A stretch of DNA of 64,000 nucleotides. Source: Pseudogymnoascus verrucosus (taxonomy: Eukaryota). Location of the stretch: assembly GCA_001662655.1 (NCBI GenBank), contig KV460230.1. One strand, written 5' to 3'. A program made the translations under genes and the position numbers. This document shows, piece after piece, positions 1-20,809 of the stretch. The first letter of the stretch is position 1, and every line of letters begins with the position of its first letter. Under the pieces are notes generated by a model. It ran no database searches and was not told the DNA's origin. It saw nothing but the letters and a program-made list of their open reading frames with translations.

Positions 1-34
1 AGGGCAGATCAATTGATTACTTCTACTATTTGTG

Positions 35-161
35 GTTTACGGTTAGGCCGGGCCAACCGTAAACCGGAAAAATCATGGTTGGACCGGCCAGTTCATGAAC
101 GGGCCGGCCAGTTCATGAACCAGAATAGTTCACGGTTGGGCCGGAACATATATCAACCCTG
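35..161. mobile_element. Terminus of a probable hAT-like DNA transposon with subterminal repeats
   Basis: Ends ...tatcaaccctg (reverse complement begins CAGGGTTGATA, a CAG-start TIR as in hAT elements). Contains GGCCAGTTCATGAAC twice and inverted AACCGT(A/G)AAC motifs. Family assignment is inference. Confidence 0.5.
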
Positions 162-299
162 AATTTGTTCCTATAATTATAAATTCGACTGTGTCCCTCT
201 ATTTATACCTCATCTCCTTCTCAGTTCGGGCAGAGGCGAATCGCCCTGGGAGAGGGAGGATGTGGCATTACCCTACGAGCAAGACGGTCTCCAATAACC

Positions 300-761
300 A
301 CATATAGGCTAGTAAAATCCATGACGCTATGTCACTTACAAGCTTCTTAAACCCCATCGAAGAGAGCGAAGAAGAGGATATAATTACTAATGAGAATACA
401 ATTCTATAGGAGGTAATATAGGAGCATTTGGGCCTACAATCAGCTGGAGCCGAAGCTGACGAAGAAGAAGAAGAATAGAACAGCCATTACTAACGCTACT
501 AGAAGCCCGCTAAGCTCTTTAAGTTCTTATAGAATATATAGAAGGATCAAATACGCTTGGGAAATCATATTCTAGGGCCTTAGAGCGCCTTACTACTGAT
601 ATTGAGGCTCTAGTAATATCATCAAGGCGGCAGAGTACTCTAGATAGTTGGTTTACATAGTCATTCAATTTTATCACGTGTTTCTAGTATACCGATATTT
701 CAATTATAACGATATAAAAGTCTGGTCAAAATTACATCGTTATAACAGGGGTCCGACTGTA
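300..761 (+). mobile_element. RIP-mutated 3' fragment of a pogo/Tigger-like (Tc1-mariner superfamily) transposon with right TIR and TA target site
   Basis: 481-660 translates as QPLLTLLEAR*AL*VLIEYIEGSNTLGKSYSRALERLTTDIEALVISSRRQSTLDSWFT*, with the QxTLDSWF tail typical of pogo transposases. Internal stops are TAA/TAG at likely Gln codons. TIR-like end ...cgttataacaggggtccgactg (to 759) is followed by TA. Confidence 0.75.
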
Positions 762-882
762 AGCGAATGCCAGCCTTGCTCAACGGCAAAAGGCCCCAAC
801 ATCTTTAAATACTTTCTTCCAGTGTCTCATTTTATTCCATCACGTCTACTATTATTGTGTATCTCCGTTTTTTTTTATAAAC

Positions 883-3800
883 ATGGTCGAAGCAGTTGCG
901 CTCGTTGGCCTTACTGGCTCAATCCTCCAATTTGTTGACTTCAGCTCTAAAGTTATTAGACGGCTACGGGATTTCCAGTCTTCGCTCAAAGAAAAACAAA
1001 ATATATTCAGCAACTTACTAGTCATACTACCTTTTATGAGAGACGCACTGGATGGCTTATGTAACCCGGATGTGACAAAATATTTGAGTGAACAAACTGA
1101 GGTTGTTCTTCACATGATCAGAGGATGCGTTGCTCAGGTTGAATTGCTTGAAGGGTTTATGAGGAGAACAATTCCAAAAGAAGATGAGACTTCATTCAAC
1201 TAAAGATGGAAAGCACTCTGTAGCCTTGCTCGCGAAGAGGATGTCAAGCAAGCCGCTAGGCGTCTTCGTCAGTTCTCGAATTTCCTGATCTTGCATCAAT
1301 CTATTCATACTTCGCACCTTAGCACTCAAGTGCTTAGTCGACTTACAGCTCTAGAAGAAATCGCCAAGACGGCAACTGAAACTTTTAATCAGTCGACTGG
1401 GAGCCGAAGAAAAGACGACACAGAATGTGTCTGAAAGCAATAAGGGAGATAGTATCCACTCCCTCATACAGCCTCAGCGACAAGTTAAAAGGCCAACTAC
1501 TTATTCAGATCAATCAGGCACACTATTCTTAAACGACAGATGTGGTTGTTCTTGCCACAAACTGTTGTCAAAGTCTGCCCGTTTCTGGTCTTGGAAACTG
1601 ACCTCACTTGCTAATCTTCTTTCCGCCTGCGACAGGCCATCTTGTGCGAACAAGACTATCCGTACGTCGGTTTACATCAGCCTCTCTCATTTCAACATTC
1701 GTCAAGCCATTCATCTTGGGTTGGGCTTTGCATGGGGCGAGAGTGGATGTTCATTGTCGTTTGTGCTTCGCCCTTCTCGAACTGTCAAATACACATCTCC
1801 CGGATTTGTGCTACTATGGAAATGCGAAACAATGCAACTTCGGTGGCCAGAGGCCCAAACGATGCTAGCAAAGCTCTTCAACGAAAAAGAAGCCTCACCG
1901 GAGGACGTTGACCCATCGGGGAAGACATGGCTAGAGGTAAGTTTACCATATTTGTTTTTAAGTCGAGAGCTAAATTTTAATGTATTTTAGAAGTTATTGC
2001 AATATCCATGGAAGTTCGGCTCTAAAGAAGCACAATTTGGGCTCTTCAAATTGCTGGTGGAGTCTGGCGCAAAGCTGGATACCGATATGTCGTAAGTTTA
2101 GAAGAAATTATGCTGTTTTACACTTCGTTGACTCTTGACATGTAATTTCTAGACTGCTATGTCTCTGTGCTCACTGGATTGGAGAAGCTCCACACTTGAG
2201 TACAGTGGAAGAATTACTAGACCATGGATATGATGTTTCGTTAGTAAACTCTCAGTCGTTATTGAGTTGGCCAGAGCCTTCCAACCCTTGCTGGATAAGT
2301 GAAGAAATGACCCCTGATCCCTTCTTCATTGGACTTATCGGAAAATGTGTGAAAAACGACCCTAGTGAGTATGTCTGCGTCGTCACAAAAACAATTGCTA
2401 ATGAATCTTCTCATGCACAGGTTTCGGCGACACAACCCCTCTCATGGAAGCTGCCTTAATAGGATCTGAACAAGAACTCCGTCAACACTTCTCGAAGTCT
2501 CATGATCTCAAAATAAATTTCTTGGGCCAATCTGTGCTTCACCTTGCCATATTGCGTCCTAAAGTTTTGCGGTGGCCCATCTCGATCTACGAGACTGTAG
2601 ATATGCCAGACAAGAATGGGACGACTCCGTTGATGTATGCAGCCGCATATGACAAAGCCGAATCAGCACTCCTATTGCTAGATCAAGGAGCTGATCCCAG
2701 AGTAACTGATCGGCTTCGGCAACGTAACTTCTTGGATTATGCGCTTACTCGAGACAACTGGAGCTTCATTACCGTAGTAGTTAATCATCTCAAACAACGC
2801 TACGAAGCCCACTCTTATCAAGGTATGCTTAACTACATCATGCAAGCATATGTTTTATCTCGCGAGAATCGGTGGGGGGAGAAGCATTTTCAAGAACTGC
2901 TTTCCATGGGAGCTGATTCCAATATGATATTTTATGACGAAAGCACGCTTCTCCACCAAACACAGGATGTTAATGAAGTAGAAGCGCTTTTCCGAGCTGG
3001 ATTTGTAAGGATTAATCACCAGGACAGGAGTGGCATCACACCGCTTATGAAAGTGGTTAGGTTGAAAAATGCCGCTTTAGTCGAAGCATGTTTAGGCAAG
3101 GGCGCTTCCATTAATGAGAGAGACCACAGGGGATGGACAGCACTACATCATATTGCTCAGGAACTACAAAAGTCAAGGAGCACCTCCTATGACCCCGATT
3201 CTGCGGATTGGTATTTGCTACTACATTCAGAGCTTCTCGATACAGTAAGACTACTTCTTCGACATGGAGCAGACCCTGCAGCAAGAGATCACTGTGTATG
3301 CGCTTGTTCACTCTCAGGATGTACACCTTCGACTGTCCTACTAGGAAAGGGAGATTTTCCATGTCTTTTTCCGAATGGGGATATGTGGTCGTTAGAATGG
3401 CTTCAGATATTATCAGAGCTTGGATCTGAGGATACTGGAGAGCAAAGGATGCTTGATTTGGTTAGAGTTAAGCAGTTCGAGAAGCGTGAATTGACTCATG
3501 TCTGCTGCCAGAGAGGCTTTTATTCGCAACTCGACGAGGACGACTTTCATGAAATTATAGACGAGGAAAACGAGGGCATACAGGAAGTTGACGAAATGAT
3601 GCAATGTTACTTAGAATGCGGTAGAGGCAATGTCCAGGAGAGATGGATTGAGCAGCTTTCATTGATGTCAAACCCGCAAGGAATACATTCACTGGACAGA
3701 GTCGTAGCTAACGGGCAGCGTAAGTTAAGACAGCCTCCTATCAAACCCTATTGGGACTTACATTCTAAGTGAACTAACACTTCATGGTGTATTAAAGGGT

Positions 3801-3997
3801 CTAGCAGTTAAAGATCCTATACGTGTCAATTCGTTCTCTAGATACAATATTAACACTGTCCGAGACAGATTCGAGGAGCACTTTGGCCCTCTATCTTCCT
3901 TTCCGCTACGAGAGCAAATTAATATGAAGGACTATTGCATCTGGCTCGAATACTACTACAACAATCAGGCAAAATTCAGCACATCGTATTCTGTTAA
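883..3997 (+). pseudogene. Ankyrin-repeat protein with SesA/HeLo-like fungal N-terminal domain (NLR-related architecture), disrupted; Starship cargo
   Basis: N-terminus MVEAVALVGLTGSILQFVDFSSKVIRRL. Ankyrin motifs GTTPLMYAA, GITPLMKVV and GWTALHHIA. Introns at about 1937-1990, 2092-2152, 2365-2420 and 3720-3804. In-frame TAA at 1201-1203, after which the frame continues RWKALCSLAREE. Frameshift near 1430. The last exon runs into antisense captain sequence at ~3998. Confidence 0.75.
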
Positions 3998-5974
3998 TCA
4001 TAAAACAGCCTGTCCTTCTTTGCTCTGTAGATCTTTAGTAACTAATAATGCATTTGCGATACGATTGCGTTCCGGCATAAGGTGGCGGATCAAAGGAAAC
4101 TTGCTAGCTGGTTTTGGTAAAGTTTCATCATCCTCTCCTTCTTGTTGCAATTGCCGTTGAGCCTCTTCATCGAAACTACCAGAGAACCACTTCTCTCTAT
4201 GTGACGCGCGAGCTGATTAGAGTAGATTACTTTTTTCAGTGTATAGTTTATGTCGCTCTTTGAACTAGGCTAAGCCTTTGTTAGGATTTAGAGGTATCTT
4301 TGCCGTCGCCTCCTTAATGCGCTTATTTAGCTCTTGAACTTCAGGCTGTTAATGAAACTCATCTTTCTCTTTGCATGTAAGGTCTCTAGGGGCGTTCTAG
4401 TCACGTCGATGACCTACGCTACATAACACCTTAATGTGTTTAGTAGATCTAACTTTGTTAGAGAACAAAGCAAATATATTCTCTTTAACAAGCCCTAACC
4501 TATAGTATTCCTTATATACAGCATCGCTTTTCTAACCTATAACTTGTTTGCGTATCTAAGGATCTTAACACAATTAGAAGATATTAAGTATAATATAGAT
4601 TAAACTCACCTTTAATCTTATTTACAACCCTAGCGCAGATTGCATAGATCTTCACATTGTCCCTATAGCTAGCACGTTTTGTAAGAGAGACGATTTAATC
4701 TTAGAGAGATACGAATGTTAGTGCCCTATTTTCGTGTACGCTATTTGAAGATACCATTCAAAGGACAGGACAGTTAAGGGCTTCGTCTTTCCATTTTAAA
4801 GTCCACGAATCTCTTCCTCTTAGCACGCGAGCCTTCAAAAGCTTTTCTAAAGTCTCAAAGTGTTTAAAAGCATTGTTAGCTATTACTATAGTAAAAAAAG
4901 ACATTACTCTATTATCTTATAGATTGTCTGTTAACTCTATAACGATCTTAAGGCTATGTCTAGTAAGCATTGCCTATAGTGTTCTGCAAAGTTACATACT
5001 TATCATTCTTATCATTACGTTTTCCTTTTAATAATCGCTAAACTACTATAAGCTTAAAAGTAAAACTGCTATTAGCCTCTCGTAACAAGTGAACATAGCA
5101 ATCCTAATTAGTTAGCAAATTATCGCACTTTTTAGACTTAACATACCTTATAAGCAATTACTTCATTTATTCCCCTATAAGAGCTTAACTCTATATAGGC
5201 ACTACCTCTAGCGCTACTATTAGCAAAGAAAAGCAAAGTAAACGATATCTAGAGCCTATAGCGCTTATATAGATAGTTATAATCATTAGAACACTATAGA
5301 TATGTTATTAGCATTATTAGGTCTATGTTAGTAACTAAGTATTTGTTATGTTTCTTTATACTTAGACTAAGGTTGTCTTTTAAAGATCTTTTAATATACT
5401 AGATATATGTTAATTAACATTTAATAAAAGGGGATTATAGATTATATACTAGCTACATTACTAACAATGTCCTTAGTAAGCTTAGATTTTATAGCTTAAG
5501 TATAATAGCTAACATATTAGTACTATATATTAACAATACTATAGACTATTAGAAGTTCCTTAATTTAACTATATTATAATAAAGCATAGTATTTAACAAA
5601 GTCTTTATATAGAGTGCTGTTATGTTATAGTAATGACTCTATCTCTATATCCTTTATAGCTAGAAAACTAATATATCTATTAGTAGCACTATACATAGTG
5701 TTAAGTCTTATGTACTTTTAAAATACCTCTCCTATGTCTATGTGCCTAACTTTAGTAGCGCTAGAGAGATATTTTTGTTCAACTTAACCTATTATATTCT
5801 TTTCCTTAAATGTTTTCTACTTAAAGTAGCCTTATAACTATGCTAGAGCAGCTTATTCTTCTTTAGAGAGAGTTTTTCACCCTATAGTTCTAGGGTCCTT
5901 AAAAGTAAATAAAGAATGTTGTAGATGGTAGAATTCAAAATCTAAACATAGCAGGAGCGTTTCTTTTATACCAT
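3998..5974 (-). pseudogene. DUF3435 tyrosine recombinase (Starship captain), RIP-inactivated and 3'-truncated
   Basis: Manual minus-strand translation gives DUF3435-type blocks: YLYKRYRL*ISFTLLFFANSSARGSAYIELSSYRGINEVIAYK (~5150-5280, catalytic R in S[G]AR); LTKRASYRDNVKIYAICARVVNKIK followed by a gtgag intron (~4610-4690); RKQVIG*KSDAVYKEYY (~4500-4555); GHRRD*NAPRDL (~4380-4420); LIRHLMPERNRIANALLVTKDLQSKEGQAVL (~4000-4095). Very TpA-rich. Candidate ATG at 5974. Confidence 0.85.
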
Positions 5975-5980
5975 TTTTAA

Positions 5981-6036
5981 GCTCACCCTCGCTTACCTTG
6001 CTTACCCTCGCTCACCCTACTCACCTTCGCTCACCT
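5981..6036. repeat. Degenerate ~10-bp tandem repeat (GCTCACCCTC) just upstream of the captain ATG
   Basis: gctcaccctc gcttaccttg cttaccctcg ctcaccctac tcaccttcgc tcacct, about 6 units. Confidence 0.85.
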
Positions 6037-6242
6037 AGGTACCGGATTATCTATAGCCATCTAAAGTCGCAGTGCATCGCGTTCATCGCGTCTCAATACA
6101 TGACCCACTTCGTGCGTGTCGACGTGGCTGCTATTAGGAAGCTAAGGGGGATAACCGGATTATCGTAAGGCATCAAAAACTTAAGGGCGGCGACGCTCAC
6201 CCGCTAGTCCAAATGGCACCGTCCTGAGTATTAATCCACTGA

Positions 6243-6307
6243 AAGCTTGAGATCGGTGGATTAGTAGTTGGGTGGGTGACCACCAGCGAATACCCACTGT
6301 TGTATGT
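6243..6307 (+). pseudogene. 5S rRNA gene, 3' half only (about nt 55-119)
   Basis: Identical to 18757-18821 of the intact 5S gene and followed by a T-run Pol III terminator. The 5' half is absent. Confidence 0.95.
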
Positions 6308-8285
6308 TTTTTTTGCCTCATTTTTTTTTGTTGCTTGTGTGGACTCTACTGTGGATAGTTGTCACGATCGTGGTAATAGGTATATCGCGGAATCGAGGCC
6401 CCTTATGGCATGAAGGGTGAGCAGGGGGTGAGTTGGATGAAAGCGAGGCAGAGGAACATTTTCATATCAACACCGAAGTTTGGCCATCGTAGCATACATA
6501 CCATAAGGATGAGAGCTTCATCCAACTCATGCGGCCCTGAGGGGACATCTCCTCAAATCTCTCATCTCGATGTAATGTTTCCACGCAATAGAATCAATGA
6601 ATTCCCGCACATCTTGTGTAGAGGCATTACTGAATTGTTGATTTTGAGGTCCGCCTGATTCATGCGTTTGGCGTCCGCAATCATCACACTCCTTCAGTCC
6701 AGATTTCCAGCCACAGCACCCGCTCCGGTGTTACTTCCCGACATGTTTGCGTTATTCACTGAGATCTGGCTAACTTCCTCAAGACTGTCACTTCTCACAC
6801 TGGACTCTTCCGAAGGACTTCGGTCTCGGTATGTTGTGAACGCTCCTCTTTCTCGGCTTCTTTCCCACTCAGGTTCCCGAGCGCCTTCACCTTCCATACA
6901 AGTCGATCCACCTCACAGCTCTAAATCGCCGTTCACTGACTGTAGGGTTTTTATGTGGTTACTGCTCACGAGCCTCTTATAACAAAAGGCCACCGTCCCT
7001 CAAGAGGAATCGTTAACCAAAAGTCGGCTAGACAAAACGTTTGACGTGTTGTACCGCAGTCGTAATGAGGTCGCGGGCGATTTTCAAAAACACAGTCATT
7101 CGCAAAGAAACTGATCGACGCCGTAAGTGGTGGCTTCTCTATGCGGTAGGTACGGTGGTTCTTGCTGTCGCTATGGTGTTCTCACCCCCGCTCTTCTCGT
7201 GATACGCCTTCTTGCCACCATCACCTGCCCACAATTCAAATTCTCGTCACCGCCACCCTCCCTATCGACACATTCATATCCCTACCCCTTCCCATCTCGG
7301 CGCCTGCCTGACCCCCGTTCCCGCGTGTTGGGCAGACTTGTCATGCTGCCGGAGGATATTCATCATGACTCTCTCTTGGTAATTCTTTGTGGGATTGAAG
7401 GATGTTTGAGGAGGAGCAGCGGGGTTTTATATTTCGAGACGGTCAGTGAGAGGGGTGAGCAGGAGCAGGAATTTAGACGGACTACTCTTTTATCCCGTGT
7501 CGAGGAGAAATCGGGAACAGGGGGGGGGGCTATATGATGGACTCTAGAATCTGGGAATACAGCTTGTTTCATTCACCGGCTACCGAAAAACCTTTTTTTG
7601 ACGTTGTGATTGTGGCCGAGAATATACCTTTTTATGTGTTGAGTGGTTTACTCAACCTCTTCGGCTTCTCGATATGGTAGACACGGTGGTTCTTGTTGTC
7701 GCGATGGTGCTGTCACCTTCCCTTCTTCTTCTCGTGACACGGGTTCTTGTTGTCGTGATGACCTTCTCACCTCTCCTTTCTCACCAGATAGATTCTCAAC
7801 CAGTAACCCCATAACCACCACACTTCCCACACCCACCGTTCACGAGTTTCGATTGTCAACATGTTACGCGCATTGGTTCCAGCAGCTTGTTTGTCCTAGA
7901 GAATTTTGTTTCATGCTGGATAGGCAATAGGAACGGCCGGAGCGAACACTAAATACCTAGAGCTGTTCTCGGCTTTGGCTTACTGCTGCTGGAATGAAAT
8001 GGCGATTTTCACTCTGAGGAAGGCGTTTTATACTTATTCCCTGTCCGCAGTGAAGAGCTCAGCTCAGCTGGTGAGCTTGGGGTCCGGGTTTTACTTTTTT
8101 TGTTCTTGGGGAAAGTGGGAAGAGCGAAGAGGGGAGAAGGGGGGATAAGGGGGGATAAGATGGGTGAAGGGGGGATAAGGGGGGATAAGATGGGTGATAG
8201 AGGATATATATATATATTTTTCATTCACTGCTCACCTTGGATATTTTGCTTCATTGACTAGTTCTATTGGCAGAAAATGCCTCTC

Positions 8286-8333
8286 GCGCATGCAAAGCGC
8301 ATGCAAAGCGCATGCAAAGCGCATGCAAAGCGC
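8286..8333. repeat. 11-bp tandem repeat (GCGCATGCAAA)x4
   Basis: Four perfect copies plus GCGC. Confidence 0.95.
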
Positions 8334-8779
8334 CGTATCCGCATAGCTAAAGCCGTAATACAGTGCATCTAAAACCGTCGAACGTAGATAAACAAACTGA
8401 TTGCGAAGACTGTCATATAGAGGCATATCAGTTCGTCGACCTTCGTTGGCTTCTTAGAAGCTTAACTTACTAACCTTAAACATGTTGAGTTATTTCATCA
8501 GATCTTTGAATAATGGTACAGGTAGTAGGGAAGCATAATTGTCGTATTCAAAGGATGAGGAGACATATCTGCATACCTCGCGATACGTATTCTTAGGAGC
8601 TTGCGTGTCACTAGGTCATTGGGTGAGAGTGTAGAGTTGTAGTTACACGGCATTGCTGTCACGCTGAGGTCCAATTACTGGAAAACCAGACACGAAATAA
8701 CTAGAGCTTCGACTCAATGATCCCCATCATCCTTTCTCCTGAACAACTGAATTAATACGGACCTGAGAACTTTGACACT

Positions 8780-9843
8780 ATGAGCTTCTGTTGTATTCTT
8801 TGTGATCGGTCCTTCAATATCAAAAACGCGCTACAACAGCACCTGCGGGATTCGCCAGCGCATGCCCTGTCCTTTAACTGCGATGACTGCGATCGATCTT
8901 TCAGTAGCGAGGAGGCACTGCAGCAGCACCTGCGGGATTCACCAGCGCATGCCCCGTCCTTCAACTGCGATGACTGCGATCGATCTTTCAGTAGCGAGGA
9001 GGCACTGCAGCAGCACCTACGGGATTCACCAGCGCATGCCCCGTCCTTCGATTGCGATGACTGCGATCGATCTTTTAATAGCGAAGAGGCGCTGCAACAA
9101 CACCTGCAAGATTCGCCAGCGCATGCTCCGTCCTTTGACTGCAATGACTGCGATCGATCTTTTAATAGCGAAGAGGCGCTGCAACAACACCTGCGGGATT
9201 CGCCAGCGCATGCCCCGTCCTTCGACTGTGAAACCTGCGATCGTCACTACGGCAGTGAGGAAGCTCTACAGCAGCATCTGCGGGACTCTCACGTTAACCA
9301 ACAGGATACGGAGACTCCTTTAGATGCCTTTTTCCGCTCTTTCCCAATGTTTGATTATGACCCTTCTCTCTCCCCCGCTACTTCTTATGCCAAGTTGCAG
9401 AGACACGAAGGATGGCACCGCGGGAATGCCGCGTCGGAAGATGCGTGGGACAGATACCAAGGTGCGCTGCAGAACGAACTACACATGTGGTATGGTGCAG
9501 AGAGCGATTTGACTGCGTGGCATGCGCTTTGTCGCGCGATCGGTGTCAAGCCGCTTCCAAAAACGAGCGAGCAATGCGAGCAGGTACGTACCGCATAACG
9601 AAAGTTGGTGGATTTATGATGACACGAATAAAGGCTGTGCGAAAGACACAGGTCAACATCGTTGATTTGATCGAATGGGGACGAAGTGGTAGTAAGGGAA
9701 GAGTTCGGACCTTTCGTGATGTAGAAGAGCTGCGAGCCTACACTAAGGAGACAGGCAAGATATTTCACAATATGTTCGCCAAAGAAAGCAGCAATGTTGT
9801 CTTGAGACACCTGCTTCGACATATCTTTCGAGTGAGCTTGTGA
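8780..9843 (+). CDS. C2H2 zinc-finger tandem-repeat protein with conserved fungal C-terminal domain; join(8780..9583,9634..9843)
   Basis: Six CxxC...HxxxxxxH fingers in 29-aa (87-bp) repeats, SFNCDDCDRSFSSEEALQQHLRDSPAHAP. GT-AG intron 9584-9633 joins CEQ to AVRKTQVNIVDLIEW. Confidence 0.85.
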
Positions 9844-10124
9844 AACAGAAACAAGGTCATCATAAGGTCGGACAGTAGAGTTACATCTGTAAATGCTGTT
9901 ATCTGATCCAGATCTACGTGATACAGCAACGGAGATTCTTGCTAATCTAGATCAATTGGAGCTTCAAGTTAACTCTCCTGATATCCGTTTAAGTCCGTGG
10001 AGAGTATAGGGTTATTTTAGTTGATCTTATTGGAAACTTTCCAGAGTATGTGGTCTATCCTATGTGAAGGGTTAGGAGGGGTGAAGATTTGCTGCCCGTA
10101 AAAATAATATATAATAAATTTGCC

Positions 10125-11332
10125 TTACGGGCCATTTTCAAGCTCATACGTGTTGGATGGATACAGTGTGCCCTTCTTGAGAATAACAAGCGGATGGTGA
10201 TAAAGTCCCGATTGAGTTGGAACACTCCAAGCCTGAACCGGTTGTTTCTGCGCTAGTTCCCAAAAAAGGTCCATGCTGTAAAGCTCCTCAGATCGCACAG
10301 CATAGAACCAGGTCAATAACGTATACAAACTGACCTTTAATCGGCCTTCATAATGCTCCGCCCCAGCTGCTGAATCTGCTGATGGAGGTGGAGGAGGAGG
10401 TGTGGTTGAAGGGACGAACTTCGCGTCATACGCCCATATCCACGGTGTACGAGTGTTAATGCACGCATTCACAACCTCGGGAGTGACGAGTAGGAAAGTA
10501 TTAGTCAGAATACGTGGATTTGGGTCAACCTCTCCTGCCACTCGGTCTTGGAAAATGCTAGAATATTGTCAGTCAAGGAAATTTGAGGAAAGAGTAGGAA
10601 ATAGGCAGACCTGCGTAAAATTTCAGGGCTACTCTCAGACACAAGCCCGTCTGAGAAAGTAAACTCTTTCGTTGGGATGATGGCTGTGCCGCCCTTCAAC
10701 AGCCTGAGGCCCTCATCCACGCGACTGTCCATAACCGTAAGAAACCTTTCCCAAGAGTCATTGTTGCTGTCACCAATTGTTGCACTATCCCTGAAGACAA
10801 CAAACCCCCAGCGTCTAGTCTGATTGCTCCATGACACGGATGGGTCGATAAGTTTCCGTACCCATTTGCAAGGCTGCTTCATGTCCTCAGCGTAACTCTC
10901 CAATCTCGCCTTGGTTTCTTTTGCTCTGGCAGCTGAAAAGTCGTTTGCCCGACATCTAACAGCTAACGATACAGCGTCATCCCGAGGAGTTACAAGTGCA
11001 CGACGAGCTTTCAAGTGAGCCGTCCGATCCTCGTGACACCAGTGAATTTTGCTGTTTGCTGTCGACTCCCATGGATCCCAAATGTGGTACCCATTTCTCA
11101 TTAAACGGCATTCTTCAGATGTCATCGACTCGGGACTTGTGAGGGCTTTGTTCTCCAATTCTTCCGGTGTTAATCCACTGACTTCGAGGGCGTGGGCAAT
11201 TTGTGTAGTGAGGTCCGCTTGTCGAAGTACAATGAGTCTTTCGGCGTCTGTCACCTCACCTGGAGTTTGTACAGCCTTGGCCCATAACTCCCTCTCTAGA
11301 GGAGTAGGATAAACGTCCTTCGGGAGGTCCAT
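10125..11332 (-). CDS. Hypothetical fungal protein; complement(join(10125..10557,10611..11332))
   Basis: Two ORFs join in frame across intron 10558-10610 (GT...CTGAC...TAG). Contains a WGFVVFR motif seen in fungal hypothetical proteins. Confidence 0.75.
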
Positions 11333-11384
11333 GCTTGATGTTTTCCAAGAGTGGTGATTTGGATGCGATTTACAGTCGATGTGA

Positions 11385-11481
11385 CCTCACCCCGCGGCTA
11401 ACCCTCGCTTCACCCCTAAGGCGGCAAGGGGCTCACCGGCTAGGCCGGGATGTCACCAACCGAAGTAAAAAGCAAGTGGTT
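11385..11481 (-). mobile_element. Second Starship-like terminus (element B), homologous to the 6182-6242 terminus
   Basis: Aligns with the element A end at the same distance from the 5S junction (taaggcggc...gctcaccggctaggcc...atgtcacc..cc..agta). Includes GCTAACCCTC/CTCACCCC-type subterminal motifs. Confidence 0.65.
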
Positions 11482-11544
11482 GCTTGAGATCGGTGGATTA
11501 GTAGTTGGGTGGGTGACCACCAGCGAATACCCACTGTTGTATGT
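11482..11544 (+). pseudogene. 5S rRNA gene, 3' half only (about nt 57-119)
   Basis: Identical to 18759-18821, with a T-run terminator. The 5' half is absent. Confidence 0.95.
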
Positions 11545-14500
11545 TTTTGTTTTGTTATTTTTTGTGGTTGCCTTTTTTTGCACCAGGCTTGAAAGCGGTA
11601 AGGAGACCCTGGGGGGGGGGAAGGAGCTCAGAAGACACATCATCCGTGTGAACCACTTGATTTTCTGAGTCCTTGAATTCCTTTTAAGGCAGGTGTATGG
11701 CTGATGTATTGACCATACCGGGTTTCTAGAGAGGAGAACTGATATATTGTTCTTAGGCTGTCTTCTTTTGCTCCATGATTAAAGCAGTTTCCCCCAGCAT
11801 AGCCTTATTTATATTTATGCTCATCAGTGAGGAGCTACTTTGGCGGCGCATGTGCTGGATGTCACTATAACAGCGAGACAAAACGGTGTACGTTTTGGAA
11901 ACTAATCGACTTGACCGGTGACTCTGACGTGGTCGTGTACGTGATAGATGTGAATAGAGGGTTCTGTCGTGGTGGTGTTCTCACCTACCATTCTTCTCGT
12001 GATACGGGTTCTACTTCTCACCACATACCTTCTCACCACCACCCCCCTCCTGTCACCTCCAATACACCATCCCCAGAAGCATTCAAGAGTCGCTAGGGGG
12101 AAGTTCGAAAGACACCTCTTGTGTGCGTGTGGCCCGTTTTACGTCAGTTCCATAAAAAAAAACCTTTCAGCTCCATATATCGCCGTTGGTTTGACGAAAC
12201 TTTCCTCTCAGGAGCTCTTTTTATACTTCGCCACTGCAGGAAGGAGTTCATCTCAGATTAGCTGGTGAGCCTGGGATCCCGAGTTTTGCTTCCTTTATCT
12301 TGTGTCTTGGGGAAATGGGAAAGAGGAAGGGGATATATGATATACGATAGACGTGCTATATATAGTCTAGTTAAGCCATTCCCAACCTATCCGCCTTGAA
12401 ACTCGTTTATGACAGTGTTCAGCCGTTATAAAGCAATCCCAATTCCGACTGTACAATGTCTTGTGGGTTCTTACTGTTGCGATGGTGCACTCAGCTCCCC
12501 TTCTTCTCAGGATACGGGTTCTTCCTGTTGCGCACTATTCTCACCTCTACTTCTCACCACAAACCTTCTCACCACCGCCACGCCCCCGTCACCTCCAACC
12601 CCCCACCCTCAAAGAACCCAGGAGCCGCCGCTCGAGACCAGCTTAGCATGCACCTCGTGTATGTGTCACCTATCAACCATTTTCCGTCATTTGACCACTT
12701 GAAAGTGCAGCTCATCCAATTTTTGGATATCAGCACCACCAGCGTCTTCAAACCCGAATAAAACCCCACGAGGGGCCCTATATTATCCCAGCCCCAGGGG
12801 AGACCTGTCGAAATGTTTATACTTCTTTATTTTGTCCTGCAACCGAGGATGTTTTCGTTCCAGAAGCTCGTTTTATACCCCGTCCTCGTCCCTGGAAGAG
12901 GGAGCTTATCTCAGCTCAGCTCAGTTTAGATGGTGAGTCTGGAATCCTGTTTTACTGTACGGCGATGGTGTTGTTGTTGTTGTTGTTGTCTCACTTCAAA
13001 TAGGGATGGGATGGATGGGGGAGACACGGGTCACGGTGGTGGTTTGGGGTGAGACACATAGGTTGGACGCGTATATACTGCATGCCAGATAGGGGGGTAT
13101 ATACCGTACATATCGTATTAGATGTCAAAAGGGGGATTGATTGCTTTTTGATCCGCCTCCTGTCGCGAGTGACACCATACCATACCCCTACCATACACCC
13201 TTTCACGTGACCACCACCGTTGACTGGTTCGGGTGATCGACATGTCCTGGTTCGCGCCGCTGTGACTGACTGGTTGACATGTTTGATAGTTCGGATGGCG
13301 ATATATTGTGGTTCTTTTGAAGAAATATTTTCTTCCTGCATGGTTGGGTGGATTAGGGAGGCAAGGACTGACTGGTTCTGACATGCGTAGGGGGGGAACT
13401 TGGCAGGTTGTGGTGTGTGTGTACGCAGTGAACTGTGGTTCGTGTGAGGCGAATATTGGTATAAGGTGGAACAGTCTTGGTGTAGGGCTGACTGGGTATA
13501 GGATGGATGACTGGTTGAAGGCTGACTGGTTGGGTAGTGTGTATGGTATTGTGCTGTGGTTATTGGGTAGAAAATTTGAAGAAGTTGATGTAAAATTCTT
13601 CTTCGTGGCGGCGTGGCGGCTTGGTATGTGCTGTTCGCCTCCTGTGCGGTGAGTTGTCGCGTCGTCGCTGCCAGCTATGCTGCCAACTCTGCTGTCAACT
13701 CTGCTGTCAACTCTGATTCATCCCTAATATCCCATCCCATCCCTCATCTCCACTACCAGACATACTCACCACCATCCAAAAACCACATGTCATAAAAAAC
13801 AACACCACCTCCTGAGCTTCAGACACACACACATCCCTCAGACACCCAATTGTCCAGACCACCAGATCGTCCCGATCGGCTGCCGAGCAACAAACACCTT
13901 CACCTTCACCAGTAGTGCATTTCCCAAAGCGTGCGCTCCTGTGCACCTCTGCTCTCTCCTCAGCACATCTCCGATTAAGTTTGTGTGCAGCGCGGCAGAT
14001 GAGAACTGTATCTGGACAAAGGGAGTGGAACCGTGAAAATGACGCGAAAGCTTGGTTGGTGCTGATCCCAATCACCACCATTTAAGAGGCGAGAGTAGAC
14101 AACAAAGCGCATGCAAACTATCCCGTAGTGTCACCAGAGTAAAGTGCTCAAAGTGCGCAAAGTGCGCATATACCAAGACTAACCAAGGCTAACCCAAGGC
14201 TAACCCAAGCCTATAAACCACTTCTGTAAAGGTCACTTATGCCAAACTGGCGTATTACCTCACATGGGACTCACCTCACATCCCGTACCGCCTGCTCATT
14301 TCCATCAATGCAACCCTCCCATCAGCCAATCAGCGCGTCGCAGGACCTGAAATACGCCCTGATGGCTGCTGTGTTCCTGCCTGTGGGTTCGCCTCAAATC
14401 TCGCTAACGCGTAGTAACTCCCTTATTCGGGTCTAGCTTCCCGTTCGCTTGCTTTCCCCCTTCGCACCTTTAGCATCTTTAGCACGCGCTCACTACAGAT

Positions 14501-15328
14501 GTGGACAGCACGGGGTACGGGGAGCGTTAGCGCCACCCCCCCTGATGGTAACTGTTTGGCCAGACCCCGTGTCTTGTGCGTTGATCGCACGCCCGGCACG
14601 CGTTTACTGGTAATTAACACCAATTTACACCAATTTACTCCGGCTTTTTCTCATTTTACGATCCACACCCCCCTCCCCCCCCAAACAACTCTACCTCTCA
14701 CTACCTCTCCCATAAACACCAGTCCATTCCATAGTAAACAAGTAATCTCTTACTCCGTACACCCCCCTTTCCTCTTCCCTCCCTCAACCAGACACACGTT
14801 CCTTTTCTGTTCCCCCCCCTGGTTTCCTCAATCTGCGGTCCCCACTCTTCTTCCTAACCGGTCACTTTACGGTCACTTTACACACTACTACTCTACTTGC
14901 CGCCCTCATTTCGTTCTTGTCCTCTCCACACCTTCTACCAACTTCCTCACTTCACCGTTCTATTTCCACCCAACTGAGAGTCAAGACTCTCAATCACACT
15001 CCTTTGGAAGGTCGCTGTCGGTGAATACACTCTTTGATCAGGAAATTCACTTTACCTTCAACCTTTCGTCGTCGTCAACTTCACCTTTGAAACCCGGGAT
15101 CAACAACAGCACACAGCTGTCTGTTATCAATCCGATCAACCCAATGTGAGTAGACCCTCTCCCCTCTCCTTCAACAGATTGAATATGATTCAATTCCACG
15201 CATCAATCGCGCTGGATTGTTTTCCAACGCGCAAACATTCTCAATTGCGAACAAAGCGCCTCCATACAACTAGAAACTGACAACTCCTCCTTCGCGTCCA
15301 GACCAAAGAACTACACGAACCCTTCACA

Positions 15329-16663
15329 ATGAAGCTCATCACCATCGCCCTCGTCGGCGCCTCTGCCGTGGCCGCGGCTTCCCACCGCCACGTGCATCGC
15401 CATGCTCCCCACGTCCGCGGCTCCGCAGTCGCCAAGCGCGCCGACGCAACCGTCGTTGAGGACGCCGTCGTGACCAAGTACGAGATGAACGGCAAGGAGC
15501 TCAACGCCGCCAAGGTCGAGCAGGGTGTCAAGGACGGAATCTACATCCTCCTCGACGACACCACCTCTGCTGCCCCTGTTCCCACCAAGGCTGCCGTCGC
15601 CGCCGGTGAGTTCTTGGAGCAGAAGAAGCCCACCACCCCAGCGGCTCCATCGACCACCAGCGTTGCGCCACCACCTCCGCCACCAACCACGAGCGCCGCC
15701 CCCGTCGTGCCGACCCCGGCTCCTTCTTCGGGAGGTGGTTCCGGTGCCACCGGCCTTGACGCCGACTTCCCCAGCGGAACCATCGACTGCGACCAGTTCC
15801 CCTCCGCCTACGGCCCCGTCGCTGCCGAGTGGCTCAACCTCGGCGGCTGGACCGGTCTCCAGATGACCCCCAGCTTCAGCCCTGGTGATGCCGCGATCCA
15901 CCTGATCAACACCGGTATCGGTGGCGACAACTGCATCAAGAACTCCTTCTGCTCGTACGCCTGCCCACCCGGATACCAGAAGTCCCAGTGGCCCTCTTCC
16001 CAGGGCGCAACCGGCCAGTCCATCGGCGGTCTCTACTGTAACGCCCAGGGCAAGCTCGAGCTCACCAACCCCACTCTGTCCAAGACTCTCTGCATCAAGG
16101 GAACTGGCGAGGTTAAGGTTAAGAACACCATCGGCCGCAACGTCCCCATCTGCCGTACCGACTACCCCGGTACCGAGTCTGAGACCGTCGCTCTCGACAC
16201 CCAGCCCGGCCAGGAGTACGAGCTCACCTGCCCCGACGCCAACAAGTACTACAGATGGGGCAACGCCGCCACCTCGGCCCAGTACTACATCAACCCCGCT
16301 GGATCCCCTCTCAAGGATGCGTGCCGCTGGAACGAGGCCGGCTCGAACATGGGTAACTGGGCTCCCGTTAACTTGGGTGTCGGAAAGGGACCTACTGGCG
16401 AGACGTACATCTCGATCTTCCAGAACAAGCCTACCAACCCTGATGGAAAGCTCAACTTCAACTTGGAGATTGTGGGTGATGTTAGCGGAAAGTGCGCGTA
16501 CATTGATGGCCAGTTCTATAACAATGGTGTTGCTGACCCAAGTGGTTGCACTGTAAGTCTTGATTCCCCCCCTCACCATCTTCATATCACTCCAAGAAAA
16601 CCGGTTTTCTAACACAACCACCAGGTTCTCGTCACCGGCACCGCCACCTACAAGATCTACTAG
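15329..16663 (+). CDS. SUN1: Secreted SUN-family (GH132) beta-1,3-glucanase, Sun4/Uth1/Sim1-like; join(15329..16552,16625..16663)
   Basis: Signal peptide, His-rich HRHVHRH, Pro/Thr linker and the SUN motif CSYACPPGYQKSQWPSSQGATGQSIGGLYC. Intron 16553-16624, and a probable 5' UTR intron at ~15145-15302. Confidence 0.93.
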
Positions 16664-17289: not shown

Positions 17290-17486
17290 AAAGAAGGAAG
17301 GAGCAACCAGAACCACATTAACTAGGAAAGGGAAGGAACGACCCCCTCAACTGAGGAAAGAACGAGGGGCTTTCAGAGGGAAGGAACGACCTTGTAAAAA
17401 AAAGGGGGGGGGAGGAAGGAACGACGTATTAACTGACTGAGGAAGGAACGAACGACCTGAGTAAAAAAGGAAGGAAGGAACGACCC
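17290..17486. repeat. Cluster of about 6 dispersed GGAAGGAACGAC motifs
   Basis: Copies near 17330, 17354, 17378, 17413, 17440 and 17473. Confidence 0.75.
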
Positions 17487-18671: not shown

Positions 18672-18680
18672 TTATATATA
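18672..18680 (+). promoter_or_regulatory. TATA-like element about 25-30 bp upstream of the 5S gene
   Basis: TTATATATA upstream of the 5S start, as is known for dispersed 5S genes of Neurospora. Confidence 0.6.
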
Positions 18681-18702
18681 CTCTACGTTGCGAACAACTG
18701 TC

Positions 18703-18821
18703 ACATACGACCATAGACTCAAGAGAATTGGGCATCCCGTCCGCTCTGCCATACACAAGCTTGAGATCGGTGGATTAGTAGTTGGGTGGGTGACCACCAG
18801 CGAATACCCACTGTTGTATGT
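18703..18821 (+). rRNA. 5S ribosomal RNA gene (intact, dispersed copy)
   Basis: 119 nt, ACATACGACCATAG...CTGTTGTATGT, with complementary ends, the conserved GATTAGTAGTTGGGTGGGTGACCACCAGCGAATACCC and a T-run terminator. Confidence 0.97.
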
Positions 18822-20809
18822 TTTTGCCTTTTTTTTTTGCCATTTTTAGCTATGGAATTACGAGGGCGTAGTTTGTTTGGGTTGAGAGGGAGGTTGATAT
18901 AAAAACGTATACTGTCCTGTCCGATCCCACTTCGCGTGGGGGGGCTACGATTCATGTTTGGACGGCGGGTGGTGGTGGCGCGGGATTGTTGATATTGGTG
19001 CTGTTGCTGCCGTTGCTCCTGCTGCTGTCGTCACCCCTGTTGCTGTCGCCCACCCTTGTTGCCGTCACCCCCTATTGCTGTCACCCCTTTCACCCATGCC
19101 CGCCCTCCCCATATCACCACCATCCTAGCGCAATCACAACCTACCTATCAACACACCCCCCCCAGCCGCAACTCACACACGCCATAAGAGAGGCATTGAT
19201 CTCCTTTGATGCATGGTCAAGAAGCAATATCTCTGGCAGCAGCAGGCCAACTATATATGTGTATCTCGACTACGGATTTCTGACCCAGTGGTGGTGCAGA
19301 CGTGCTTTAACACCAAGACGACACCGCGGTGACTGGTGTCTGCACAGCGACTTCGAGACGAGATACGGGTATGTTGGCATGCTGGTAGAATAGTTTTTGC
19401 GGGGACTTGTCGTCTTTTACTTCCTGGAGGGGGGGGGGAGGGGGAGGGAGGGGGACTTCATTATAAACCCACGATACTTCCTGTTTTCTGGTGTCTACCG
19501 TATCACGTCCTGTCCTCAAAATGTATTTGCGTGGAGAAACTTCGCCGCCTAGTCGGTATATGGATGACATGTATACACCGTAAAGAGCCTCAGAAAGTCC
19601 TAGCTTGCTGGACAAAGACAACTAAAGAATGATTTCGCTCAAGAGTACACCCATCTCTGAATATCAACCTGTCTTAAAAGCACGATTCGAGAGTGAGGAA
19701 AAACTCGCCTGCCTCTTCTCCAACGAGCTATAGCTACACGAGAGACTTGCTACAACCACACACCAGATCCTCAAACTGCACACGACAAGATCACGGTTGT
19801 GGCAAAGCGAGTCTCGGATGAGTTCAAGCTTGCTACCAAGAAGGAGAGGGAGCGCATTCGCAGAAAGCGGGTTGCCGAAGACGAATGGATGGTTATGATC
19901 TTGTTGCTATTGCTCCTGTTGCTGTCGCTCCTGTTCTTGTCACCCCTTTTCTTGTGACCCCTTTTCCTGTCACCCCTTTTCTGTCACCCCTTTTCTTGTC
20001 ACCCCTTTTCCTATCACCCCCTGTTCCTATCAAGCCTTTTCCTAGTACCCCCCGAGATAGTCTCGCTGCATAATAGAGTACATATCGGACGTGTAACCAA
20101 TCCGATAATTTGTTGTTGAGCTGCGGAAGTTCGCATCCTGGTGTCTTTCGCAGTATGATGACTCGTATAATACACCTGGATGCACAAGAAAGAAGCTTAT
20201 CTAGTGCTGAGTTGAATACGAAACCCCCCCCCCCCCTTCCCCCAACTCTGCCACCATCTTATTCCATGCATCCCACAAGCAGAAACGCATGTGGGGAGAT
20301 AATGGAGAAGTATGTATTCTGCCCCGGTCTTGCCCACACTGCTCACATAGAGGATTAGATATACCAGGAGGCCATATTTTGTGAATCTGTAATGTGTGAC
20401 TGGAATATCACCGGTAATAGCATATGTATGCCTTGCTCCCTCTCATATTGTCTGAATATCTATCGCGAGATCCCACATACCCACTTTTACGATATATGGA
20501 ACAAACTGTCTGCAATGTTGCCCTGGAAGGAGAGACAAGAGTGTGACGAGGGTATGAATAAATGTTTCTTCGGCCATGATACCGAAAGAGCACAAACAAT
20601 ATGCAGCGCCCAAACAGCATCGTGAACCAATATGCACTATGGGCAAAAGAGAGGATGAAGCTAATGAAGATAAATATGATACCGAGGCAGTTACAGATCT
20701 GGAATTAATAAACAAAATATTCGAGCGACAAATGAAGAACCTGTGTGGCGAACATAAAGCACTTTAAAATTACTATGCTACCATGTCCATTGCGGGTATG
20801 TCTGCGATA

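What the first reader, a model, noticed from the sequence alone, without database searches (positions are those of the whole stretch)
3998..6307. Hidden Starship: RIP-erased DUF3435 captain whose element end sits inside a 5S rRNA gene
Seen in sequence: the ORF-less AT-rich block translates on the minus strand into collinear recombinase blocks (S[G]AR...SSYRG, LTKRA[G]Y..KIYAI, IG*KSDAVYKEYY, RRD*NAPRDL, LMPERNRIA). About 270 bp upstream of its ATG the sequence switches abruptly into 5S rRNA at nt 55. Established knowledge: DUF3435 tyrosine recombinases are the first gene of Starship giant transposons, and some Starships target 5S rDNA. Inference: this is the captain end of a Starship that split a 5S gene and runs off the left edge of the window. 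Standard annotation would miss it.
Basis: partly seen in the sequence, partly recalled or inferred. Interest (0 to 1): 0.85.

Follow-up and report, generated by a model that had tools for sequence, protein, structure and literature searches.

The report
Dead Starship captain beside broken 5S
This is the mutated, cut-off remnant of the recombinase gene and end of a Starship-type giant fungal transposon that once inserted into a 5S rRNA gene, which is a known habit of these elements and so an ordinary if neatly preserved case.

Summary
On the minus strand, 4001-5885 is a DUF3435 (Starship captain) pseudogene. It passes Pfam's threshold in two frames without any de-RIPing. It is collinear with a named Pseudogymnoascus DUF3435 protein over residues 1-500. 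RIP signatures are strong: CRI 0.90, and all 21 in-frame stops lie opposite Q, R or W. A 357-nt non-coding end (5886-6242) abuts a 5S fragment at 6243-6308 that is identical to nt 55-120 of the intact 5S at 18703-18822.

Contigs of the same and related genomes show the reciprocal junction many times: 5S nt 1-61 followed by an inverted copy of this terminus. That implies terminal inverted repeats and a 5-7 bp direct repeat inside the palindrome CAAGCTTG.

The nearest relatives' relatives are Enterprise-family captains in the starfish tables, a family known to target 5S.

- The captain is also truncated at 4001.
- The un-RIPed NLR-like DNA to the left is not shown to be cargo.
- No left end is visible.
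- A second, captain-less relic end sits at about 11392-11481, beside another 5S fragment.

Verdict: a new member of a known kind, of modest interest.

The parts
4001..5885 (-). RIP-mutated, 3'-truncated DUF3435 tyrosine-recombinase ('captain') pseudogene. The start codon ATG is now ATA. There are 21 in-frame stops and several frame changes or introns. The box KIHAIRAG now reads KIYAICAR.
   Evidence: Pfam PF11917 in two frames. tblastn with P0001 and eight relatives gave 36 HSPs, none outside 3990-5900. RIP indices and substitution spectrum. Motif states and missing C-terminus.
5886..6242 (-). Non-coding 5' terminal region of the element, not RIPed from about 5961 (GC 0.50). It contains three tandem 19-nt units (5981-6037, GCTCACCCTCGCTTACCTT-like), a 25-nt direct repeat (6041-6065 and 6154-6178, ACCGGATTATC core) and the inverted terminus at about 6225-6242.
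   Evidence: Repeats. Multi-copy in the genome: the depth of bin 6004-6670 is 6992 against about 200-240 beside it, and about 1873 at position 6055, in X1. Composition.
6225..6242 (-). Terminal inverted repeat arm, read on the minus strand as T(T)CAGTGGATTAATACTC. Its inverted counterpart follows 5S nt 61 in other contigs.
   Evidence: Occurs once in the window, with 0.05 expected by chance. The consensus of loose ends behind 18763 in X1 matches it at 16 of 17 positions, compared by eye (table 7).
6243..6308 (+). 5S rRNA gene fragment, nt 55-120. It is 66/66 identical to the intact copy and is followed by the usual T-rich trailer.
11392..11481 (-). Second, captain-less relic of a related element end. 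Firm homology to 6186-6241 covers only 11420-11478. A CTCACCC-type motif lies at 11397-11409. The left limit is approximate.
   Evidence: Local alignment score 17, ending 1-3 nt from both junctions. It was reached by 0 of 1000 and 5 of 1000 random windows. Motif hit. Hybrid copies 6098>11450 and 6207>11448 in other contigs. No DUF3435 anywhere else in 1-12300.
11482..11545 (+). Second 5S fragment, nt 57-120, 64/64 identical to the intact copy.
18703..18822 (+). Intact 5S rRNA gene. It serves as a paralogous uninterrupted target, with the 8-bp palindrome CAAGCTTG at nt 54-61 (18756-18763).
   Evidence: Rfam 74.2 bits. Palindrome check.
6339..6455 (+). Candidate, weakly supported relic of a left (captain-distal) end. 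Sequence from 6367 onward follows '5S nt ..61 + 24 nt inverted-terminus-like letters' in other contigs. GTTGCTTG at 6330-6337 repeats at 11479-11486.
   Evidence: table 5c, runs X1, X2 and X3. The 8-mer occurs only at these two places. Inverted similarity to the right ends is weak: scores 13 and 12, reached by 26 and 65 of 1000 random windows.
881..4000 (+). NLR-like gene region with a SesA N-terminal domain and ankyrin repeats. It is un-RIPed and abuts the truncated captain tail to tail. Its status as cargo or as joined flanking DNA is unresolved.
   Evidence: Pfam hits. CRI -0.53. Contiguous with the captain in X1 and X2, and no cover of 1335-4000 in X3 or X4.

Best explanation
This is the fossil captain end of a Starship-type transposon, most likely of the Enterprise family, in a genome whose closest named protein matches are Pseudogymnoascus.

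Inferred sequence of events:
1. The element's DUF3435 tyrosine recombinase integrated it site-specifically into a 5S rRNA gene, at the palindrome CAAGCTTG (5S nt 54-61).
2. This left the 5S 3' part (nt 55-120) next to the captain-proximal inverted terminus.
3. The 5S 5' part (nt 1-61) would have been left at the far end, giving a 5-7 bp direct repeat.
4. Because the captain family is multi-copy, RIP then destroyed this copy. The start codon was lost, 21 stops arose, and H>Y and R>C changes hit the H-x-x-R box.
5. A deletion or rearrangement cut the gene at 4001.

The remnant cannot move. A second related end, reduced to about 60-90 nt, sits beside another 5S fragment 5.2 kb to the right, and an intact 5S lies 7.2 kb further on. 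This small 5S cluster was therefore used more than once as a landing site.

Shown here: the pseudogene, the RIP signature, the exact 5S junctions, the multi-copy inverted termini and the truncation.

Inferred: integration by the recombinase, the direct repeat, the family assignment and the order of events.
For: - DUF3435 is hit above threshold in two collinear frames. The pseudogene is collinear with P0001 residues 1-500.
- RIP: for 4381-5960, TpA/ApT is 1.55, (CpA+TpG)/(ApC+GpT) is 0.65 and CRI is 0.90, against -0.47 to -0.53 in the flanks. All 21 stops lie opposite Q (13), R (7) or W (1). Substitutions are mostly of the G:C>A:T type, such as E>K, D>N, G>S and T>I.
- The 5S fragments are 66/66 and 64/64 identical to the intact copy, starting at nt 55 and nt 57.
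- Reciprocal junctions: loose ends directly behind 5S nt 61 occur in 12, 12, 8 and 15 contigs of X1-X4. The X1 consensus contains TCAGTAGATTAATACTC, the inverse of the window's terminus.
- Five more contigs in X1 carry a related terminus directly before the 5S 3' part.
- The terminal region is multi-copy (all).
- The two junction-proximal flanks in the window are homologous.
- The target is an 8-bp perfect palindrome.
- Relatives of P0001 at 37-48% identity are 'tyr' fam06 in starfish Table S4, for 4 of the 6 accessions looked up. One was 'n.d.' and one was absent. Enterprise_Pans-Captain is fam06.
- Literature passages read: Enterprise-, Arwing- and Voyager-family elements mostly sit in 5S rDNA, with DRs of 6-16 bp (PMC11162782). 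The Enterprise-family navis Osiris targets 5S and builds a hotspot at a 5S-rich locus that includes a degraded Starship (PMC12153272). Solo ends of partially deleted Enterprise copies, a palindromic target and RIPed copies at about 30% GC are described (PMC8092012).
Against: - Only one end of the element is in the window. No 5S 5' half and no second inverted terminus were found, so size and cargo, the features that make a Starship 'giant', are unseen.
- The inverted-terminus and direct-repeat evidence comes from 30-nt consensus lines of short contigs with agreement of only 0.5-0.6, compared by eye.
- The family assignment is second-hand. The window's copy and P0001 itself were not found in the starfish tables.
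- No empty orthologous site was seen. X2 has the same structure.
- The terminal 280 nt is not RIPed although it is multi-copy.
- The high number of end junctions per 33-Mb genome would also fit a smaller element family.
Confidence: 0.75

Rival explanations
1. A complete giant Starship lies here, with the NLR-like gene as its first cargo gene and its body running off the left edge of the window. The captain lost only its last exon-sized piece to a small internal deletion.
For: - NLR-like genes next to captains are common in Starships (recalled, not checked here).
- 1-4000 has lower GC (0.42-0.44) than the conserved DNA to the right (0.47-0.53).
- 1335-4000 has no cover in X3 and X4, while 6455-11391 and 11523-18612 are covered at single-copy depth. 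The left side therefore behaves as accessory DNA.
Against: - The captain is truncated at 4001, exactly where RIP stops.
- The multi-copy matches of X3 stop at the same place.
- No other Starship hallmark gene, left terminus or 5S 5' half lies in the 6.2 kb available.
- NLR genes are variable between species anyway.
Confidence: 0.3
2. This is not a Starship. It is a small, high-copy, 5S-specific DNA transposon of a few kb with inverted termini and a DUF3435/Crypton-like recombinase as its only gene.
For: - Many end junctions per 33-Mb genome: at least 7 right-end and about 12 left-end contig variants in X1.
- The RIP-marked repeated unit is essentially just the recombinase gene, about 4001-5960.
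- Starfish resolved element boundaries in only 1 of the 18 Pseudogymnoascus sp. genomes shown in Table S8, despite 5-33 captains each.
Against: - Relatives are classified with Enterprise-family captains.
- Captain-first orientation, TIR plus DR, 5S targeting and solo relic ends all match published Starship behaviour.
- Contig counts also include relic ends and sequence variants.
Confidence: 0.1
3. A 5'-truncated 5S pseudogene and an unrelated decayed recombinase gene lie side by side by chance.
For: Dispersed and truncated 5S copies are common in filamentous fungi (recalled). A second truncated 5S in the window has no recombinase next to it.
Against: - Both truncations lie within 2 nt of each other, inside one palindrome.
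- Both are preceded by homologous termini.
- The inverse terminus follows 5S nt 61 in many contigs of four genomes.
Confidence: 0.02

Closest known systems
Enterprise-family Starships that target 5S rDNA, such as navis Osiris of Aspergillus fumigatus (PMC12153272, passages) and the Enterprise family in Gluck-Thaler & Vogan 2024 (PMC11162782, passages and tables)
   Same: - A DUF3435 captain is the first gene, reading inward from the end.
- Insertion is inside the 5S coding sequence and fragments it.
- 5S-rich loci are used repeatedly and also hold degraded elements.
- Relatives of the closest protein are fam06.
   Different: - The host genus appears to be Pseudogymnoascus, by closest named proteins. 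In Table S8, as far as shown, starfish listed captains there but resolved only one element, and that one is fam05.
- This copy is dead, truncated and without a visible far end or cargo.
- Whether its site in 5S (nt 54-61) is one of the five published sites could not be checked, because Fig. 5C and Table S13 were not available.
Enterprise / Spok block of Podospora and its solo end repeats 'bufo' and 'schoutedenella' (Vogan et al. 2021, PMC8092012, passages)
   Same: - A short direct repeat lies within a palindromic target.
- Ends persist on their own as remains of partly deleted copies.
- A site can be re-used next to an older relic.
- RIP-degraded copies have about 30% GC.
   Different: - The Podospora target is RGGTAG / CTACCT||AGGTAG, not 5S.
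- No inverted termini were reported there, whereas here an inverted terminus of about 17 nt is seen.
Voyager of Macrophomina phaseolina (Gluck-Thaler et al. 2022, PMC9156397, passages)
   Same: A Starship that always inserts into 5S rDNA copies dispersed in the genome.
   Different: Voyager inserts 20 bp from the 5S 5' end and is fam10. This element sits at nt 55-61, and its relatives are fam06.
Crypton tyrosine-recombinase transposons (cited in PMC10104507; properties recalled)
   Same: A eukaryotic DNA transposon moved by a tyrosine recombinase, small enough to fit the high copy number of ends seen here.
   Different: Cryptons are not known to me to carry inverted termini or to target 5S (recalled). 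The recombinase here matches DUF3435, and its relatives sit with Starship captains.

Membership tests
Starship (captain-led cargo transposon) | Encodes a DUF3435 tyrosine recombinase | tested here: met
   PF11917 hits of 43.9 and 29.5 bits against a gathering score of 25.8, in two collinear minus-strand frames read with X at stops. The intact relative P0001 scores 141 bits.
Starship (captain-led cargo transposon) | The captain is the first gene at one end, transcribed inward | tested here: met
   The former start codon at 5885 lies 357 nt inside the boundary at 6242/6243 and reads away from it. No other ORF lies between them.
Starship (captain-led cargo transposon) | Conserved catalytic residues (R-K-H-R-Y pentad; PMC10104507 passage) | tested here: not met
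   In the window copy the conserved KIHAIRAG reads KIYAICAR (H>Y, R>C). The GAR arginine and the AVY..Y tyrosines are kept. Which residues are catalytic is assigned from recalled recombinase motifs. The copy is a pseudogene, so this speaks against activity and not against descent.
Starship (captain-led cargo transposon) | Direct repeats and, often, terminal inverted repeats at both boundaries | tested here: inconclusive
   Only the captain-side terminus is in the window. The inverse terminus after 5S nt 61 is seen only in contigs of other loci. The overlap nt 55-61 implies a 5-7 bp repeat.
Starship (captain-led cargo transposon) | Large size (tens of kb or more) with cargo genes | not testable with these tools
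   The element is truncated at 4001 or leaves the window. No whole genome is held, and contigs break at the repeats.
Starship (captain-led cargo transposon) | Presence/absence polymorphism with an empty target site | tested here: inconclusive
   X2 shares the structure: its contig covers 513-6049 with 14 differences. No contig of X3 or X4 bridges the site. Only a paralogous intact 5S (18703-18822) shows the uninterrupted target.
Enterprise family (starfish fam06) | The captain falls in the fam06 clade | tested here: inconclusive
   Of 6 relatives of P0001 looked up by accession, 4 are fam06, 1 is 'n.d.' and 1 is absent. P0001 and P0002 themselves are absent from the stored part of the tables. 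No tree was built.
Enterprise family (starfish fam06) | Target in 5S rDNA and/or a palindromic core | tested here: met
   The junctions at 5S nt 55, 57 and 61 lie inside the perfect palindrome CAAGCTTG, nt 54-61.
RIP-mutated repeat | TpA/ApT above 0.89, (CpA+TpG)/(ApC+GpT) below 1.03, and C:G>T:A changes (thresholds recalled) | tested here: met
   Values of 1.55 and 0.65 for 4381-5960. All 21 stops are explained by C>T or G>A changes in Q, R or W codons.
Functional 5S rRNA gene | Full-length match to RF00001 above its gathering score | tested here: not met
   24.1 bits against a gathering score of 38 for 6209-6308. Only nt 55-120 are 5S.

The most novel reading that the evidence does not exclude
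The 5.1-kb block 6339-11481 may itself be a captain-less, Starship-derived element. It lies between a candidate left-end relic and the second right-end relic. It is flanked by the only two copies of GTTGCTTG in the window, and it carries ordinary-looking genes that are conserved across Pseudogymnoascus species. If so, this 5S cluster would record a non-autonomous cargo carrier that was mobilised in trans, became fixed in several species, and was later joined by a second insertion next door.
Probability: 0.15. Interest if true: 0.55.

Novelty: new member of a known kind. Interest (0 to 1): 0.3.

Why it matters
The finding gives one nucleotide-exact Starship boundary in a genus where the starfish survey listed 5-33 captains per genome but resolved almost no elements (Table S8 rows seen).

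It provides a target, the palindrome CAAGCTTG at 5S nt 54-61, and terminal sequences: an inverted terminus of about 17 nt and CTCACCC-type subterminal repeats. With these, the other copies could be found and delimited.

It also shows the usual life cycle in one view: insertion into 5S, RIP, truncation, solo-end relics, and re-use of a 5S cluster.

It does not change what is known about Starships.

Tried and rejected
- Whole-genome search: no genome is held for this window.
The raw frames read with X at stops already pass Pfam (after one search failed on stop codons).
- Scan for other captains in the window. Six-frame Pfam of 1-12300 found none besides this one. tblastn with 9 family proteins gave 36 HSPs, none outside 3990-5900.
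- ORF 10505-11332, next to the second junction, has no Pfam family. It has homologues in several Pseudogymnoascus species and in Scytalidium (16 hits). I take it as a host gene, not a captain.
- The metagenome scan for the reciprocal junction gave 1 hit (L001). It is AT-rich with no 5S, so it is a chance match.
- A profile of 8 family proteins against PDB sequences gave no recombinase, only two kinase hits at E 0.3.
- The AlphaFold model of P0019 from the 8-sequence alignment had mean pLDDT 38.6 and pTM 0.23. That is too poor, so no fold search was run.
- The accessions of P0001 and P0002 are not in the stored part of the starfish supplement. The names of the fam numbers are not in the main text. 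The string AAGCTTG is not in the stored tables, and the single CAAGCTT hit was an unrelated Coccidioides flank.
- Inverted similarity between 6309-6508 and the right ends is weak: scores 13 and 12, reached by 26 and 65 of 1000 random windows.
- In contigs of X3 and X4, parts without cover (1335-4000) and contig ends near 6455, 6562 and 11391 cannot show absence. The convention for minus-strand record coordinates is not stated, so I do not say on which side the unmatched tails lie.
- Earlier findings of this scan: none.
- Literature: only 1 paper in the library holds both 'Pseudogymnoascus' and 'Starship', a DNA-repair review seen as a listing only.
Full report
**1. What is in the sequence**

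The window has one sharply AT-rich block. GC is 0.375 in 4001-5000 and 0.283 in 5001-6000, against about 0.47-0.6 for most of the window. No ORF of 60 aa or more lies in 4161-6409.

With stops read as X, and without any de-RIPing, two collinear frames hit Pfam PF11917 (DUF3435) above its gathering score of 25.8:
- profile 107-200 at about nt 4638-4901, with 29.5 bits;
- profile 219-399 at about nt 4025-4552, with 43.9 bits.

The best database relative of the C-terminal part is P0001, a 535-aa DUF3435 protein of Pseudogymnoascus sp. VKM F-4246. It is 74% identical over 96% of the queried region.

tblastn with P0001 gives five collinear minus-strand pieces covering its residues 1-500 from 5885 down to 4001. 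Of 494 aligned residues, 395 are identical.

Nine of nine family proteins begin MGR. The window reads I-G-stop there, as ATA GGG TGA at 5885-5877.

tblastn with nine family proteins found nothing else in the window: 36 HSPs, none outside 3990-5900.

**2. RIP**

| Region | TpA/ApT | (CpA+TpG)/(ApC+GpT) | Composite index |
|---|---|---|---|
| 4381-5960 | 1.55 | 0.65 | 0.90 |
| 881-4000 | | | -0.53 |
| 6309-11481 | | | -0.47 |
| 18823-64000 | | | -0.49 |

All 21 in-frame stops lie opposite Q (13), R (7) or W (1) of P0001. The commonest substitutions are E>K, D>N, G>S, T>I and S>L. All of these are G:C>A:T transitions.

The conserved box KIHAIRAG reads KIYAICAR in the window. The GAR arginine and the AVY..Y tyrosines survive.

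Which of these residues belong to the R-K-H-R-Y pentad is my assignment from recalled recombinase motifs. The pentad itself is mentioned in a passage of PMC10104507.

**3. The 5S junction**

An intact 5S gene lies at 18703-18822, scoring 74.2 bits in Rfam.

Positions 6243-6308 are 66/66 identical to its nt 55-120, and everything left of 6243 is unrelated. On its own the fragment scores 24.1 bits, below the gathering score of 38.

The former start codon lies 357 nt from the junction.

**4.

Positions 11482-11545 are 64/64 identical to 5S nt 57-120.

The 57 nt or so to its left (11420-11478) align with 6186-6241, and both alignments end 1-3 nt from the junction. The score is 17, reached by 0 of 1000 and 5 of 1000 random windows.

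A CTCACCC-type motif also recurs. The pattern GCTCACCCTCGCT with up to 2 mismatches gives 7 hits against 1.73 expected, including 5981, 6000, 6019 and 11397.

No DUF3435 lies next to this second junction. The adjacent ORF, 10505-11332 on the minus strand, has no Pfam family. It has homologues at 92, 68, 63 and 52% identity in different Pseudogymnoascus species and 35% in Scytalidium. I read it as a host gene. The second junction therefore looks like a solo end relic.

**5. Evidence from other copies**

I laid contigs of four coded runs on 1-20000:
- X1, probably the source of the window;
- X2, a close relative;
- X3 and X4, other organisms.

X1 and X2 have one contig across the NLR-like region and the captain, ending at 6049. 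They cover 568-6049 and 513-6049, and X2 shows 14 differences. The arrangement is therefore real and is shared by X2.

The terminal region is multi-copy:
- In X1 the bin 6004-6670 has depth 6992, against about 200-240 beside it.
- That bin also holds the 5S fragment.
- At 6055, which lies outside 5S, the depth is about 1873, spread over at least 5 contigs.

Directly behind 5S nt 61 (18763), 12, 12, 8 and 15 contigs of X1-X4 run on into other sequence. The X1 consensus is TAATTCAGTAGATTAATACTCTCAATCGTG, with agreement 0.6. It contains the inverse of the window's terminus, which read on the minus strand is TCAGTGGATTAATACTC. The match is 16 of 17 positions, compared by eye.

Five more X1 contigs carry a related terminus directly before the 5S 3' part (loose end before 11480, agreement 0.92).

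Hybrid copies (6098>11450, 6207>11448) and length variants (5984>6102, and a CTCACC insertion at 6010) show a family of related ends.

The simplest reading has three parts:
- The family carries terminal inverted repeats.
- It inserts at one site in 5S, leaving nt 1-61 on one side and nt 55-120 on the other.
- This gives a direct repeat of 5-7 bp, (A)AGCTTG.

That site lies in CAAGCTTG (nt 54-61), a perfect 8-bp palindrome.

Two caveats apply. These are consensus lines of short contigs, and 577 further loose-end rows were not shown.

**6. Truncation at 4001**

All 7 relatives that reach the C-terminal region continue after QA.L with QD..SL..D..VAYRP. The window stops at QAVL, and no such block is found anywhere in it, even at E 50.

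Three further observations mark the same point:
- RIP stops there.
- In X3, depth jumps from 0.52 in bin 3336-4002 to 316.6 in bin 4003-4669, against about 32 for single-copy DNA.
- A 2716-nt contig of X4 matches only 4001-5876, with 191 differences (about 10%). Host flanks differ by about 2.2-2.3%, that is 35 of 1588 and 147 of 6450.

So 4001 is the edge of the repeated unit in this copy.

The DNA to the left holds a SesA domain at 883-1203 and ankyrin repeats at 2444-3772. It is un-RIPed, has lower GC, and is not covered in X3 or X4.

It may be cargo surviving beyond an internal deletion, or it may be unrelated DNA. I cannot tell which.

**7. Family**

Relatives of P0001 at 37-48% identity were looked up by accession. 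Of the 6 accessions, 4 are 'tyr' fam06 in starfish Table S4. These are OBT76035.1, KFY94270.1, KFZ13483.1 and KFY94199.1. One is 'n.d.' and one is absent.

Enterprise_Pans-Captain is fam06 and Voyager is fam10.

The window's copy and P0001 themselves were not placed. The Enterprise-family assignment is therefore likely but indirect.

**8. Comparison with what is known (passages read)**

- PMC11162782: 23% of 222 curated Starship insertion sites lie in 5S rDNA. There are at least five distinct target sites. [quoted passage not shown] Some targets are palindromes.
- PMC9156397: Voyager inserts 20 bp from the 5S start, a different site from this one.
- PMC12153272: the Enterprise-family navis Osiris targets 5S in Aspergillus fumigatus. 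A 5S-rich locus there is a Starship hotspot that includes a degraded element.
- PMC8092012: the two ends of Enterprise persist alone as remains of partly deleted copies. New copies insert beside old relics. The target is palindromic. RIPed copies have about 30% GC.

Every feature seen here has a precedent.

Table S8 of PMC11162782 lists 5-33 captains in each of the 18 Pseudogymnoascus sp. genomes shown, and a resolved element in only one of them. Only one paper in the library holds both 'Pseudogymnoascus' and 'Starship', a DNA-repair review seen as a listing only.

The supplement file was cut when stored. Table S13 (direct repeats) and Fig. 5C were not seen, so I cannot say whether nt 54-61 is one of the published sites.

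**9. An open lead**

Sequence from 6367 onward follows '5S nt ..61 + 24 inverted-terminus-like letters' in contigs of X1, X2 and X3 (table 5c).

GTTGCTTG occurs in the window only at 6330-6337 and 11479-11486.

This would fit a captain-less element spanning about 6339-11481. Against it, the inverted similarity of its two ends is weak, and its genes look like conserved host genes. I give it about 0.15.

**10. Verdict**

This is a dead, truncated captain end of a 5S-targeting, probably Enterprise-family, Starship-type element, with a second solo relic nearby. It is a new member of a known kind and of modest interest.

Noticed in passing
window 11392-11545: A second 5'-truncated 5S (nt 57-120) is preceded by a related element terminus with no recombinase gene. 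It looks like a solo end relic, 5.2 kb right of the first.
   Followed up: yes
window 5981-6037, 6041-6065 and 6154-6178: Between the captain start and the terminus lie three tandem 19-nt CTCACCC-type units and a 25-nt direct repeat with an ACCGGATTATC core. Other genomic copies vary in unit number (a CTCACC insertion at 6010, a 117-nt skip 5984>6102). They may be recombinase-binding or promoter repeats.
   Followed up: partly
window 7130-7260, 7660-7800, 11940-12070, 12440-12600: A repeat of about 100 nt (core TGTCGCGATGGTGTTCTCACC...TTCTTCTCGTGATACGGGTTCTT) occurs twice downstream of each truncated 5S. A further shared stretch is 8012-8132 with 12205-12326. The two downstream flanks are therefore old paralogues.
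   Followed up: partly
window 44-153: A GGCCGG-rich repeat. In other contigs of X1-X4 it adjoins the start of 5S genes (joints 151>18696, and 100>18722 on opposite strands).
   Followed up: no
window 18696-18838 (seen in other contigs): Joints that 'go back' 142-143 nt from the 5S trailer to 7 nt upstream of 5S appear in all four runs. This suggests tandem 5S copies with a period of about 143 bp somewhere in these genomes.
   Followed up: no
window 8780-9598 (+): A 272-aa ORF with six C2H2/jaz-type zinc fingers, encoded by 87-bp tandem repeats that are 80-89% identical.
   Followed up: no
window 883-3772 (+): An NLR-like gene with a SesA N-terminal domain and ankyrin repeats, but no NACHT hit at E below 0.01 in the six-frame scan. 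Its last exon's frame runs across 4001 into the antisense of the captain remnant.
   Followed up: partly
proteins P0022 and P0002 (relatives): These annotated family proteins also read KIHAIC in place of KIHAIR, and several gene models lack large blocks. Other family copies in public Pseudogymnoascus assemblies may be damaged too.
   Followed up: no
window 15329-16612 (+): A SUN-family beta-glucosidase gene (PF03856, 288.8 bits), with a long antisense ORF at 15311-16585 that is probably a compositional artefact.
   Followed up: no
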